Below, one piece after another: positions 1-3,000 of a stretch of 39,530 nucleotides of DNA. The DNA is taken from the IMG/VR virus record IMGVR_UViG_2718218228_000004, one strand, 5' to 3'. Each line of letters starts with the position of its first letter. Within the stretch, counting starts at the first letter, position 1. Made by a program: the position numbers. The stretch is from a virus (Duplodnaviria > Heunggongvirae > Uroviricota > Caudoviricetes).

Positions 1-3000
1 TATCGCGTCCTCAACAATGAATTTTGTGATGCAGTGCCTGGTGCCTCCAGGTGACGTTAACCAGTTAACAATTAACGTCGGGTTAGTTGATGCTCGTTAC
101 GCCAGTAAAAGACCGCCTTACTGCTTTAACTGTTCCGCGTGCGCATAGCCGCATTCACCGCATCACAAAATTCACTTTAAAAAGGGCGGATATCCATTTC
201 CGCCGAATCACCAGAAAAGTGATAACAGAGGTTGTTGTGGCTGGGGTGTCACTTAAGCGTATGGTCAACCTGACAACCCGGTGTCCTCAACGGGGGAAGG
301 AATAACCCCGCCATACTTACCGCCGCGCCATTTCGCGGATTGCCACAACCAGAAGCGCACGGTCGAATTAAATTTAACGACGACCTATACAGAGAGACTA
401 ACTTCGCCGTGCGCTTTCGTGTTATGCCCTGACTTTTCAGGGTAAATTAACCTGTGGAAACCTGTTTTTACTGGCGCTAATCAGTTAGCGTTTCTTGCTA
501 ACCAGCGATGCGCGCCAGCTTCGGTTTTAAACGTTTTACTTCTGGTATACGTCATCGCGGTAAACGTGCCGTCGTGGTTGGGGAATACTCCGCACACCAG
601 AGATTCATTGTTGCCAAGATTGAGCATATCCATGTTGACCTCATTTACCCTTAACGCCGGGTCGCGGAACTAAAAACCTGCTGCGCTGTTATACAAAGTG
701 TTCCCGCCGTCATGTTCATACGCCTCGGGCTGGCTACTTAACCCCTGACCACTGCCGGGTAACTCGAGGTATTGCCCGACGTTCTGTGGGGCGAGGTAGG
801 GTGGTATGTAATAAATCTAAAAGTATTTAGTTTTTCAGTCAAGGTAAATCTAGATTAATTTAAAAAAAAGGTCGGCATTGCCGACCTCAAGTAAAGGACG
901 TGGCGGGTTATAAGTTGAACTGTACACCTTTTGCTACGGCAACAATTTTACACTCTGGTGTAAGTAAGGATGACTGATAGCGTGGATTGAGAGGGCTTAA
1001 ATACACAAGCTTCCCATCAATAACTAATTTCTTTATAGTCATAGATGGTTCATTTTTAAGCGGATCCGGAACTATTACAGCGACGATGCTGCCATTTTTA
1101 TAACTTTCTCCTGGCCTTAGGATCACAGTAGCACCAACTGGGATACTCGGTGATCCTGATGGGTTATGCATTGTGTCATCAGGCATTGAAACGGCAAAAT
1201 CACCTTCCTCGACATCAAAGAATGTGGTGATTCTATCGACATTTCCCATTGTTTTCTCTCCTTTTAAGATTAGGAAAGAAATCGCCTCACCCCACGAAAG
1301 GTAGGGGATCTTGGTGCCTGAGGTACTTTGTACAAAAGATAATTCAGGAGACGATACTCCATATAGGAGATAGGACTCAGTAGTTCCTAATGCCTGGGCT
1401 AACTTACTTAGAGCTTTGCTACCTGGTTCGTTTAGATCTTTCTCCCAGTACCCTATAGTAACCCCAGTCACGCCTGAAAGCTTACCCAGTTCTACTTGGG
1501 TCAGCCCCTTATCTTTTCTAAGTCTCTTAAGCCTGAAGCCAAGGCTTTCCATCATTTTCTCCTGCAAATTGAATATAAATTATTTTAGATTGCATTGACC
1601 TAAAAAAAATTATCTTGTAATCTAAAAATGCTTAGATTTAGGAGGTAAAATGCGAGTTGATGAACTTGTCCAGTTTTTTGGTTCTGTTCAGAGGGTTGCC
1701 GATTTTTATGGGATAACCCGCGAAGCTATTTACATGTGGCGTAAGCGTCCTGGTGAAATAGTTCCGAAGGGGAGGGCTGCGGAAGCTGCTGCATACTCCA
1801 AGGGGAAATTATCTTTGAACCCAGAACTTTACAAAAAGAAGGATACCACTCAGGGCGAAGGAAAGGGGGATTCATGAAAATCAAACATGAGCACATCCGC
1901 ATGGCGATCAATGCCTGGGCCTATCCGGACGGTGAGAAAGTTCCTGCAGCTGAAATAGCCCGGACTTATTTCGAGCTGGGGATGACGTTCCCGGAACTGT
2001 ACGACGACAGCCATCCGGAAGCCCTGGCTCGTAATACCCAGAAAATTTTCCGTTGGCTGGATAAAGACACCCCTGATGCTGTTGAAAAAATTCAGGCTCT
2101 GTTACCGGCGATCGAAAAGGCAATGCCGCCTCTGCTGGTGGCCCGTATGCGCAGTCACAGCTCTGAATATTACCGTGAGATCGTCGAACGGAGGGATCGG
2201 CTGGTGAAAGATGTGGATGATTTTGTCGCAGCGGCGATCGCCTGGGGCACCCTGACTAACAGTGGTGGTCAGCCTGGTAATGCTGTTGTCGTGCATTGAC
2301 CAACAATATTCATGCCGGATTTCTTCCGGATGTTCGAGGGTAAAGTTCGGTATCAGATGAGGTGAGTATGGCTAATGCCTGGCTCAGATTGTGGCATGAC
2401 ATGCCAAATGATCCCAAATGGCGAACCATTGCCAGGGTCTCAGGACAGCCAATCGCAACAGTGATGGCGGTGTATATCCACCTTCTGGTGAGTGCGTCAC
2501 GAAATGTCACGACATGTCACGGCGTGTCACTACGTGGTCACATTGATGTCACGACGGAAGATTTAGCAAGTGCGCTTGATGTGACGGAAGACGTGATTGA
2601 TTCAATTTTGCATGCAATGCAGGGGCGAGTTCTGGATGGTGATCTTATTTCCGGATGGGAAAAACGCCAGGTGATGAAGGAGGATAACGGTAATGTTTCG
2701 CAAACCGCAAAATCCCCGGCAGAGCGCAAGAGAGCGCAGCGGGAGCGGGAAAGACTGCGGAAGCAGAACACTGATTGTCACGATGAGTCACGACGCGTCA
2801 CGCATATGTCACGACAAATCACGACAGATACAGATACAGATAAAGAATTAAACCCCACACATAACGCGCGCATGCGCGAGAGTGCTACGACCGGTGAGTT
2901 GAATGACGCGTCGTTGCAGACAGCCGAACCTGAATACCTGGACGGCCTGAGCGAACCGATCGGGAAATTTCCGATGACTGGAGTCTGGCAACCGTCGCCG

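What the first reader, a model, noticed from the sequence alone, without database searches (positions are those of the whole stretch)
2491..2826. Two helically phased GTCAC iteron arrays inside the O-like gene (candidate origin)
Six GTCAC(G) repeats at 10-11 bp spacing (2496-2552) and four to five more (2777-2822) lie within the initiator coding sequence, as lambda ori lies within O. Two separated arrays, rather than one array plus an AT-rich tract, is an arrangement I do not recognise.
Basis: partly seen in the sequence, partly recalled or inferred. Interest (0 to 1): 0.45.

Follow-up and report, generated by a model that had tools for sequence, protein, structure and literature searches.

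The report
Two-part iteron origin inside prophage initiator gene
Two clusters of a short repeated DNA word (GTCACG, one per helical turn) inside the replication-initiator gene of an E. coli O157:H7 prophage are real, conserved as DNA rather than as protein, and most likely the phage's replication origin, a two-cluster variant of the phage lambda design.

Summary
Six GTCAC(G) copies sit at 2496-2553 and five (four GTCAC, one ATCAC) at 2777-2823, all on the + strand at 10-11 bp spacing; 0 of 1000 shuffles gave a run longer than two.

The repeats are selected as DNA. They are read in all three frames. In 23 diverged relatives (host GC 34-70%), synonymous sites inside the cores are frozen (0.99 against 0.53 elsewhere). 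More distant relatives carry other words (GTAACG, CGAACGC) at the same two places, and both arrays, including inverted copies, switch word together.

It is the least stable stretch of the gene and is conserved across all word classes. Array 2 plus this tract has the anatomy of ori-lambda and lies in codons for a disordered linker. Array 1 lies in codons for a loop of the N-terminal domain and has no AT-rich partner.

The gene is not a lambda O homologue. It joins a DnaD-NTD-like winged-helix N-domain to a DnaT-like ssDNA-binding C-domain, and a lambda-P-like loader gene follows.

Best reading: a bipartite iteron origin, a new variant of a known kind. Binding and origin activity are untested.

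The parts
2368..3405 (+). Replication initiator gene (345 aa; RefSeq WP_001262409.1, 'DnaT-like ssDNA-binding domain-containing protein'; NCBI names close relatives 'phage replisome organizer')
   Evidence: ORF; RefSeq annotation; PHROG 1408/3729 'replication initiation protein'; Pfam DnaT domain.
2368..2667 (+). Codons for the N-terminal winged-helix-like domain (aa 1-100)
2496..2553 (+). Array 1: six GTCAC(G) iterons at 10,10,10,11,11 bp. It codes aa 43-62, the loop/hairpin between helix 29-45 and helix 63-70.
   Evidence: Frames used are 2,0,1,2,1,0. Relatives carry 4 copies, differing by a 21-nt indel, which is 2 units or 7 codons. Synonymous sites are frozen. pLDDT is below 50 at aa 48-54.
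2581..2585 (-). Single inverted iteron copy (GTGAC on the + strand), 33 bp after the last copy of array 1
   Evidence: It is present at the same place in most relatives. The Val codon is GTG in 20 of 20 relatives. It changes to GTTAC where the direct copies change to GTAAC.
2777..2823 (+). Array 2: GTCACG x4 plus ATCACG at 10,10,11,10 bp. It codes aa 137-152 at the start of the disordered inter-domain linker.
   Evidence: Relatives carry 3-6 copies. Synonymous sites are frozen. pLDDT is below 50 for aa 138-185.
2824..2852 (+). A-rich, purine-rich tract (ACAGAT x3.8, then AAAGAATTAAA); proposed DNA-unwinding element
   Evidence: TRF. GC minimum of the region. The least stable 41-bp window of the gene starts at 2813, about 3.6 sd from the gene mean. 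In 40 relatives the 36 nt after array 2 average GC 0.32 against 0.56 for the gene and 74% purine, with consensus CAGATAAAGATAAAGA. It is the only conserved GC dip in the gene's 5' 500 nt analysed. Asp codons here are GAT even in GC-rich hosts.
2865..2878 (.). GC-rich palindrome CGCGCGCATGCGCG just beyond the tract, on the C-module side; its role is uncertain
   Evidence: A GC-rich cluster, though not the exact palindrome, is kept in other genes that share the C-terminal module.
2968..3168 (+). Codons for the DnaT-like three-helix ssDNA-binding domain (aa 201-267)
   Evidence: Pfam PF17948 at 63.6 bits. Foldseek matches 6aeq and 4ou6 at 58-59% identity and TM about 0.9.
3398..3859 (+). Lambda-P-like helicase loader gene, overlapping the initiator stop codon by 8 nt
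   Evidence: Pfam PF06992; PHROG 109; RefSeq 'replication protein P'.

Best explanation
The two GTCACG arrays are iterons: binding sites on double-stranded DNA for the N-terminal domain of the protein whose gene contains them. Together with the A-rich tract at 2824-2852 they form this prophage's origin of theta replication.

Array 2 plus the tract is the origin core, laid out as in ori-lambda. Initiator molecules bound one per helical turn on the same face of the DNA form a nucleoprotein complex. The adjacent low-stability, purine-rich tract then melts. The tethered DnaT-like C-terminal domains, which in DnaT form filaments on ssDNA, capture one strand. The downstream P-like protein delivers host DnaB.

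Array 1, about 230 bp upstream, with one inverted copy and no AT-rich partner, is an auxiliary cluster bound by the same protein. It most likely enlarges or stabilises the complex by looping the intervening DNA.

Shown here: the repeats are non-random; they are under DNA-level selection; the two arrays evolve their word in concert; the tract is conserved and of low stability; the domain make-up of the protein.
Inferred: that the gene's own product is the binder, that melting occurs at the tract, that the DnaT-like domain captures ssDNA, and what array 1 does.

I put about 0.8 on 'initiator-bound origin iterons' and 0.55 on the whole picture, including the auxiliary-looping role of array 1.
For: 1. 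Non-random and helically phased: a run of 6 at 10/11-bp spacing against at most 2 in 1000 shuffles.
2. DNA-level selection: copies fall in all three reading frames. In 23 non-redundant relatives from hosts of 34-70% GC, the major-codon fraction is 0.99 at synonymous sites inside the cores (n=9) against 0.53 outside (n=64), Mann-Whitney p=2e-6.
3. Copy number varies by whole units: 4 or 6 in array 1 and 3 to 6 in array 2, with a 21-nt indel equal to two units.
4. Concerted word changes: relatives carry GTCACG, GTAACG or CGAACGC, always the same word in both arrays. Between L107 and L108, at least 8 positionally equivalent copies differ C<->A in direct copies and G<->T in inverted copies. That pattern fits recognition of duplex DNA, not RNA or peptide. 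A rough NJ tree places the GTAAC word in two separate places.
5. The hexamer clusters only at these two places within +/-1.5 kb in 22 loci, and never in promoter regions.
6. Neighbouring genes and the C-terminal half differ between hosts: P-like loader, DnaB-like helicase or 'replicative helicase'; DnaT domain or none. The N-domain is the only constant partner of the arrays.
7. The tract after array 2 is conserved and of low stability.
8. Both arrays sit in codons for low-confidence loop or linker segments, as the lambda iterons do (PMC7466680 for lambda).
9. Precedents: ori-lambda is four iterons plus a 38-bp AT-rich sequence inside O (PMC3349717, PMC7466680). The replisome organisers of TP901-1 and Tuc2009 bind direct repeats inside their own genes that serve as ori (PMC8965321). 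SPP1 oriL lies inside gene 38 and consists of direct repeats plus an AT-rich DUE (PMC6316719). r1t ORF11 carries GGAACC x4 at 11-bp spacing followed by (AGATAAGAATAGATT)x3.
10. The DnaT C-terminal domain filaments on ssDNA (PMC4132743, PMC13377028), and this C-domain is 58-59% identical to it.
Against: - No binding or replication experiment exists for this family in the literature I could search.
- The putative recognition helix (aa 74-84) is acidic and variable within a word class. I found no class-specific residues outside the iteron-encoded loop and the basic region, so how the N-domain would read the word is unclear.
- The tract in this E. coli copy is only moderately AT-rich (GC 0.33-0.375).
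- The distance between arrays is set by the coding sequence and shows no obvious integral helical phasing: about 228 bp, or about 21.7 turns.
- Some distant relatives have a weak array 1 (L113, L115, L122) or no array 2 (L124, L126), so two arrays are not obligatory.
- Word class partly follows phylogeny, so part of the co-variation is shared ancestry.
Confidence: 0.55

Rival explanations
1. Array 2 plus the A-rich tract is the whole origin. Array 1, with its inverted copy, is a negative control element bound by the same initiator. It could titrate the initiator, pair with array 2 or with a sister copy ('handcuffing', as with P1 incA, F incC or the extra RK2 iterons), or block transcription of the initiator gene itself about 130 nt into the ORF, giving autoregulation.
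For: Array 1 has no conserved AT-rich partner. It carries a conserved head-to-head inverted copy 33 bp away. In iteron plasmids, inverted copies are the form used for autorepression (my knowledge of pSC101, F and R6K, not tested here). Separate iteron clusters with control functions are established in plasmids (reviewed in PMC4980987). Plasmids carrying the lambda iterons inhibit replication of phages that use the lambda replication region (PMC3349717).
Against: No promoter-like site lies near array 1. A phage lytic origin has less obvious need for copy-number control. In Stx phages the extra upstream iterons are required for replication rather than inhibitory (PMC7466680). Nothing here separates a positive from a negative role.
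Confidence: 0.22
2. The repeats are binding sites for a different protein, such as a phage regulator (Cro, or the YdaT/cII-like protein) or a host factor. They would serve regulation or another DNA transaction, such as recombination at module junctions, rather than replication initiation.
For: Binding by the initiator is not shown. The module junction with other initiator types falls exactly at the tract: window 2826-2842, which is query nt 465-481. The acidic 'recognition helix' is atypical for a sequence reader.
Against: Upstream regulators and downstream helicase or loader genes differ between E. coli, Aeromonas and Pseudomonas loci that keep identical arrays. A single host factor is unlikely to be shared by hosts ranging from Entomomonas to Pseudothauera, and a host factor would not explain three word classes within enterobacteria. 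Other N-domain types fused to the same C-module carry their own different repeats at the equivalent place, for example ACCCAAA x6 in PPompW.
Confidence: 0.08
3. The repeats have no DNA-level function. They would be a by-product of a conserved peptide motif (SRNVT..GH, CHDESRNVT), of replication slippage, or of an mRNA-level signal.
For: The encoded peptides are highly conserved.
Against: A 10-11 nt period cannot come from peptide repeats, and the copies fall in all three frames. Synonymous positions are frozen even in hosts of 34% and 70% GC. Inverted copies change by the complementary base, which only duplex-DNA recognition explains. GTAACG copies avoid the frame that would read TAA and shift to 21-bp spacing, so coding adapts to the DNA word rather than the reverse.
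Confidence: 0.03

Closest known systems
Phage lambda ori inside gene O (and Stx-phage variants with six iterons)
   Same: The origin is embedded in the initiator gene. Same-strand iterons lie in codons for an inter-domain linker. An AT-rich, A-rich tract follows directly downstream. A P-type loader gene is next in the pR-type early operon cro - cII-like - initiator - P (PMC3349717; PMC7466680). Upstream extra iterons exist in Stx phages.
   Different: There is no sequence homology to O (no Phage_rep_O hit). The iterons are 6-7 bp words every 10-11 bp, not 18-19 bp inverted-repeat units. A second array lies about 230 bp upstream inside the DNA-binding-domain codons. The C-domain is DnaT-like.
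Replisome-organiser genes of Gram-positive phages with intragenic origins (Tuc2009 Rep2009, TP901-1 ORF13, r1t ORF11, SPP1 G38P/oriL)
   Same: In these phages the initiator binds direct repeats located inside its own gene, and those repeats act as ori (PMC8965321; PMC6316719). r1t ORF11 shows the same local layout as array 2 plus the tract: GGAACC x4 at 11-bp spacing, then an AGATAAGAAT-type repeat tract. NCBI names this protein's close relatives 'phage replisome organizer'. Weak PHROG and Pfam matches point to replisome-organiser families, and the fold is DnaD-NTD-like.
   Different: Homology is not established: PF09681 is below cut-off and hhalign against r1t ORF11 gives 10% probability. r1t has a single array. 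SPP1's second site, oriR, lies about 13 kb from oriL in the circularised genome (PMC6316719), not 230 bp away in the same gene. The C-terminal domains differ (Phg_2220_C or DnaB_2 against DnaT-like).
Iteron plasmids with separated iteron clusters (RK2 oriV, P1 incC/incA, F ori2/incC)
   Same: There are two clusters of the same initiator-binding word. Only one cluster adjoins the AT-rich unwinding element, and inverted copies are present (general knowledge; review PMC4980987).
   Different: Plasmid Reps are Rep_3/TrfA-type two-winged-helix proteins with 17-22 bp iterons, DnaA boxes and promoter-overlapping inverted repeats. None of these is found here. Here both clusters are inside the coding sequence.
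E. coli primosomal protein DnaT
   Same: The C-terminal three-helix ssDNA-binding domain is 58-59% identical to the DnaT C-terminal domain.
   Different: The DnaT N-terminal domain is absent, and the NCBIfam DnaT equivalog scores 93 bits against a cut-off of 201. Here the domain is fused to a putative origin-binding module in place of PriA/PriB-directed localisation.

Membership tests
Lambda-type origin (ori-lambda / O protein, Pfam Phage_rep_O) | The initiator carries the Phage_rep_O N-terminal domain | tested here: not met
   Pfam scan of the 345-aa protein finds only the DnaT domain. PHROG hits are to other initiator families.
Lambda-type origin (ori-lambda / O protein, Pfam Phage_rep_O) | Four to six 18-19 bp iterons, each an inverted repeat, in the middle of the initiator gene | tested here: not met
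   The units are a 5-7 bp core at 10-11 bp period, arranged in two arrays.
Lambda-type origin (ori-lambda / O protein, Pfam Phage_rep_O) | An AT-rich tract directly downstream of the iterons | tested here: met
   2824-2852 is the GC minimum and the least stable window of the gene, and it is conserved in 39 of 40 relatives.
Lambda-type origin (ori-lambda / O protein, Pfam Phage_rep_O) | A P-type helicase loader encoded immediately downstream | tested here: met
   PF06992 with E=3e-16 and PHROG 109.
Lambda-type origin (ori-lambda / O protein, Pfam Phage_rep_O) | The initiator binds the iterons and the fragment supports replication | not testable with these tools
   This needs EMSA or footprinting and an origin-plasmid assay.
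Phage replisome organiser with intragenic origin (Pfam Phage_rep_org_N; Tuc2009/TP901-1/r1t/SPP1 type) | The N-terminal domain matches Phage_rep_org_N | tested here: inconclusive
Phage replisome organiser with intragenic origin (Pfam Phage_rep_org_N; Tuc2009/TP901-1/r1t/SPP1 type) | Direct repeats inside the initiator's own gene, adjoining an AT-rich region | tested here: met
   The same layout is seen in r1t ORF11.
Phage replisome organiser with intragenic origin (Pfam Phage_rep_org_N; Tuc2009/TP901-1/r1t/SPP1 type) | A helicase or helicase-loader gene immediately downstream | tested here: met
   P-like loader here; DnaB-like helicase in the Pseudomonas relative; 'replicative helicase' in the Aeromonas phage.
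Iteron-plasmid origin (Rep_3/TrfA type) | A Rep protein of the Rep_3/TrfA family, 17-22 bp iterons and DnaA boxes | tested here: not met
   No such Pfam hit. No DnaA box at one mismatch or fewer within or next to the arrays and tract; the nearest lie in the inter-array spacer at 2656-2664 (minus strand) and downstream at 3003-3011, and the window total is at chance. The units are short.
DnaT (primosomal protein I) | A full-length DnaT equivalog with both N-terminal and C-terminal domains | tested here: not met
   The NCBIfam equivalog scores 93 bits against a cut-off of 201 and covers only aa 192-269. The C-terminal domain alone is met.

The most novel reading that the evidence does not exclude
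The family carries a bipartite origin in which a second initiator-binding array is written into the codons of the initiator's own DNA-binding domain. Array 1 would then be a functionally distinct element, either a loop anchor needed for firing or an autoregulatory or handcuffing site. Binding specificity would be re-set by concerted one- or two-nucleotide changes in every copy of both arrays (GTCACG <-> GTAACG; CGAACGC <-> GTAACGC). Because the array-1-encoded loop is the most class-specific part of the N-domain, the binding site and part of its reader may be the same stretch of DNA. If so, site and protein would change in a single step.
Probability: 0.3. Interest if true: 0.6.

Novelty: new variant of a known kind. 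Interest (0 to 1): 0.45.

Why it matters
This replication module is common. It is present in 644 of 5426 complete E. coli genomes, with up to four copies per genome in O157:H7. Relatives occur in prophages of Pseudomonas, Bordetella, Aeromonas, Serratia and others. I found no described origin for it.

A defined origin (2496-2852) and a predicted recognition word would allow several things. One is typing of replication specificity among the many co-resident lambdoid prophages of EHEC. Another is prediction of cross-talk or incompatibility between them. A third is construction of origin plasmids.

The family is also a clean natural example of dual coding. The DNA word fixes a peptide (SRNVT..GH), and stop-codon avoidance reshapes iteron spacing. 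It also shows how iteron specificity can switch in concert.

Fusing a sequence-specific localiser to a DnaT-type ssDNA-filament domain bears on the recently drawn DnaT/DnaA parallel (PMC13377028).

Tried and rejected
- DnaA boxes: none at one mismatch or fewer within or next to the arrays or the tract. The nearest are in the inter-array spacer (2656-2664, minus strand) and at 3003-3011, and the window total is at chance.
- Sigma-70-like promoters in 1500-3500: none. The terminator-like hits are only the GC palindrome at 2853-2881 on the minus strand.
- Rfam: nothing in the region.
- Sequence search of the PDB with the N-domain profile: nothing meaningful.
- hhalign of the N-domain profile against r1t ORF11: 10% probability, so no homology claim is made.
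- Search for class-specific residues in the putative recognition helix: none found.
- A second AT-rich element next to array 1: only a -0.06 GC dip, not comparable with the -0.28 dip after array 2. 'Two independent origins' is therefore rejected.
- Iteron copies in promoter regions, as classical autorepression would predict: none in 22 loci.
- Inverted repeat 2790-2800 / 2904-2914: the downstream arm is not conserved in relatives, so I treat it as chance.
- Literature: six full-text searches found no paper describing GTCAC-type iterons or an origin for this initiator family. The primary papers on r1t and TP901-1 and the Weigel & Seitz review are not held, so an earlier in-silico mention there cannot be excluded.
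- PLSDB: the only small 'plasmids' carrying the module are 50.9-kb circular Pseudomonas phage genomes. These are not independent evidence of plasmid-type replication.
- I did not identify which Sakai Sp prophage corresponds to the window, so the induction and replication data of PMC2669165 could not be applied.
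Full report
**Setting**

The window is a lambdoid prophage of E. coli O157:H7. The 499-bp test stretch is 100% identical in many O157:H7 chromosomes, and the module is present in 644 of 5426 complete E. coli genomes, with up to four places per genome.

The early-right operon reads as follows:
- cI-like repressor, 908-1567 on the minus strand
- Cro-like gene, 1650-1877
- YdaT/cII-like gene, 1874-2299
- initiator, 2368-3405
- lambda-P-like loader, 3398-3859
- DUF1627 gene

**1.

GTCAC lies on the + strand at 2496, 2506, 2516, 2526, 2537 and 2548. It lies again at 2777, 2787, 2797 and 2808, with ATCACG at 2818. The spacings are 10,10,10,11,11 and 10,10,11,10, about one helical turn each. 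An inverted copy lies at 2581-2585.

In 1000 dinucleotide-preserving shuffles, no run at 10/11-bp spacing was longer than 2, against 6 observed. No other 5-mer in the window behaves this way.

**2. The repeats are constrained as DNA, not as peptide**

- The copies fall in all three reading frames, so a 10-11 nt period cannot reflect a peptide repeat.
- I collected relatives from phage records, IMG/VR and one genome per species. Proteins at least about 56% identical keep GTCAC arrays at the same two gene offsets, about +129..160 and +387..420. Their hosts range from 34% to 70% GC and include Entomomonas, Aquitalea, Bordetella, Pseudomonas, Acidovorax and Pseudothauera.
- In a codon alignment of 23 non-redundant genes, synonymous third positions inside the cores are essentially invariant: Val GTC 23/23, Ser TCA 22-23/23, Gly GGT 23/23, His CAC 21-22. 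The mean major-codon fraction is 0.99 inside (n=9) and 0.53 at conserved residues elsewhere (n=64), p=2e-6.
- The inverted copy is frozen as well (Val GTG 20/20).
- Copy number changes by whole units. Most relatives have 4 + 3-4 copies and the E. coli clade has 6 + 5. The array-1 difference is a 21-nt indel, which is two units or seven codons and so preserves the frame.

**3. Both arrays change word together**

More distant relatives have no GTCAC. They carry other 10-bp-phased words at the same two places:
- GTAACG in Pantoea, Enterobacter, Sphingomonas and Marinobacter loci
- CGAACGC in eleven beta- and gamma-proteobacterial loci

In every case both arrays carry the same word.

The closely related genes L107 (Erwinia) and L108 (Enterobacter) differ at eight or more positionally equivalent copies. 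The difference is C<->A in direct copies and the complementary G<->T in inverted copies. L106 is a mixture of the two words. This pattern is what recognition of duplex DNA by one factor predicts. It is not what an RNA or peptide signal predicts.

A rough NJ tree of the N-domain, with iteron-encoded columns masked, places the GTAAC word in two separate places.

Coding also adapts to the word.

In 22 loci, GTCACG hexamers cluster only at +100..199 and +350..449 within +/-1.5 kb. None lies in promoter regions.

**4.

Array 2 is followed at once by an A-rich, purine-rich tract at 2824-2852: ACAGAT x3.8, then AAAGAATTAAA.
- It is the GC minimum of the region, at 0.35-0.375 with AT skew +0.5 to +0.6.
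- It contains the least stable 41-bp window of the gene, dG -47 against a gene mean of -58.9 (sd 3.3).
- Across 40 relatives of all three word classes, the 36 nt after array 2 average GC 0.32 against 0.56 for the gene, lower in 39 of 40. They are 74% purine on the top strand, with consensus CAGATAAAGATAAAGA.
- In the 23-gene alignment, which covers the first 500 or so nt of the gene, this is the only conserved GC dip, at -0.28. After array 1 the dip is only -0.06.
- Asp codons in the tract are GAT even in GC-rich hosts.

Array 2 plus the tract therefore has the anatomy of ori-lambda, which is iterons joined to a 38-bp AT-rich sequence inside O (PMC3349717, PMC7466680). Array 1 is an extra, upstream cluster.

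A GC-rich palindrome (2865-2878) follows the tract. Its significance is unclear.

**5. The protein**

AlphaFold models give four parts:
- a confident N-domain, aa 1-100
- a basic helix, aa 117-137
- a disordered linker, aa 138-185
- a confident C-domain

The C-domain is a DnaT-type three-helix ssDNA-binding domain: Pfam 63.6 bits, and Foldseek matches 6aeq and 4ou6 at 58-59% identity.

Array 1 encodes aa 43-62, the loop or hairpin between helices 29-45 and 63-70, with pLDDT below 50 at aa 48-54. The two extra units in E. coli lie in this loop. Array 2 and the tract encode aa 137-162, which is the end of the basic helix and the start of the disordered linker. The DNA elements thus occupy the structurally least constrained codons, as in lambda.

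**6. Modularity**

Megablast of the whole gene against phage records matches only from nt 465-481 of the gene, which is window 2826-2842, inside the tract. From there the C-terminal half is 86-89% identical to genes with other N-domains.
- The HTH_36-type initiator of PPompW phages carries its own word, ACCCAAA x6, clustered just before the same junction.
- Rac-SA53 YdaU (DUF1376) has an inverted repeat and the same GATACAGATACAGAT tract.

Conversely, the N-domain with its arrays and tract is joined to non-DnaT C-termini, and is followed by a DnaB-like helicase in a Pseudomonas relative and by an annotated 'replicative helicase' in the Aeromonas phage.

The N-domain is the only constant partner of the arrays. 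This is the main argument, by inference, that it is their binder.

**7. Mechanism (inferred)**

- Initiators bind one per turn on one face of array 2.
- The adjoining low-stability tract opens.
- The tethered DnaT-like domains stabilise one strand. In DnaT these domains filament on ssDNA, with two nucleotides held at each protomer interface (PMC4132743, PMC13377028).
- P delivers DnaB.
- Array 1, about 230 bp upstream, binds the same protein. I favour an auxiliary, complex-building role by looping. Extra upstream iterons are needed in Stx phages (PMC7466680). A negative role such as titration, handcuffing or a roadblock within the gene is a serious rival, because array 1 lacks an unwinding element and has a conserved head-to-head inverted copy.

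**8. Caveats**

- No experiment exists for this family in the searchable literature.
- The helix in the usual 'recognition' position is acidic and variable. No class-specific residues were found outside the iteron-encoded loop and the basic region.
- The fold assignment is modest.
- Some distant relatives have a weak array 1 (L113, L115, L122) or no array 2 (L124, L126).
- Part of the word co-variation follows phylogeny.

**9. Comparison and novelty**

In working principle this is the known 'origin inside the initiator gene' design of lambda and of the Gram-positive replisome-organiser phages. In r1t ORF11 I found the same local layout, GGAACC x4 at 11-bp spacing followed by an AGATAAGAAT-type repeat tract, but as a single array and without demonstrable homology.

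It fails the membership tests for lambda O/ori and for iteron-plasmid origins. Membership of the replisome-organiser family is inconclusive.

Four features look new: the conserved two-array layout within one gene, the short one-per-turn words, the concerted word switching, and the DnaT-type C-domain. I rate it a new variant of a known kind, of moderate interest.

Noticed in passing
window 2722-2743: GAGCG occurs three times at 10-11 bp spacing, inside the codons for the basic helix (AERKRAQRERER) between the two arrays. It may simply reflect the repeated Glu-Arg codons.
   Followed up: no
window 2865-2878 (and 2853-2881): A GC-rich palindrome, CGCGCGCATGCGCG, lies immediately after the A-rich tract. 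A GC cluster, though not the exact palindrome, is kept in other genes that share the C-terminal module (Rac-SA53 ydaU, PPompW).
   Followed up: partly
window 2790-2800 and 2904-2914: A perfect 11-nt inverted repeat (ACGACGCGTCA / TGACGCGTCGT) brackets the A-rich tract, and one arm is an iteron of array 2. The downstream arm is not conserved in relatives, so it is probably chance.
   Followed up: partly
L136 721-1761 (Stx2a phage / PPompW 'phage replication protein'): A different N-domain (HTH_36-like) is fused to the same DnaT-like C-module. It carries its own repeat, ACCCAAA x6, at gene offsets 292, 381, 425, 447, 467 and 477, ending at the same junction sequence AAACCCCACACATAACGC. This is probably that phage's origin.
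   Followed up: partly
L135 716-1786 (Rac-SA53 ydaU): The DUF1376-type YdaU shares the C-module and the GATACAGATACAGAT tract. It has no iteron array. Instead an inverted repeat (TGTTCAAAC...GTTTGAACA) precedes the tract.
   Followed up: no
L139 3896-4630 (Lactococcus phage r1t ORF11), gene offsets 316-400: GGAACC x4 at 11-bp spacing is directly followed by (AGATAAGAATAGATT) x3. This is the same 'short iterons plus AGATAA-type tract' layout as array 2 here, in a phage of a Gram-positive host.
   Followed up: partly
L123 and L133 (Serratia MAG, Pantoea), gene offsets about 320-400: The same N-domain is joined to an unrelated C-terminal part. Dense CTACGTA/TACGTAG palindromic repeats sit where array 2 would be, and there are no repeats at the array-1 position.
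   Followed up: no
L106, L108, L119, L120: GTAACG-type iterons are never read in the frame that would give TAA. This is a clear case of stop-codon avoidance shaping the spacing of binding sites.
   Followed up: partly
window 8847-10002 and 10773-10945: A Q antiterminator gene (8847-9542) is followed by three tRNA genes (Met-CAT, Arg-TCG, Arg-TCT; 9753-10002) and the sRNA STnc100. This is the position where Stx phages carry stx. I saw no ORF of 110 aa or more there and did not look further. A SASA-family esterase gene follows at 11083-12933.
   Followed up: no
window 13015-13947 (-) and 16513-17445 (+): Two identical IS3-family transposase copies, with ALIL frameshift pseudoknots, lie in inverted orientation and flank the lysis region (lysozyme 15154-15687; Rz 17490-17957 is just outside). 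This suggests IS insertion or inversion in the late region, and possibly a defective prophage.
   Followed up: no
window 6663-6837: There is an Rfam sok antitoxin RNA match (a hok/sok-type toxin-antitoxin locus) in the nin-like region.
   Followed up: no
L140 (CP137943.1) and CP124671.1: Two 50.9-kb circular Pseudomonas aeruginosa records deposited as 'plasmids' are lambdoid phage genomes. They carry this N-domain/iteron module followed by a DnaB-like helicase gene.
   Followed up: partly
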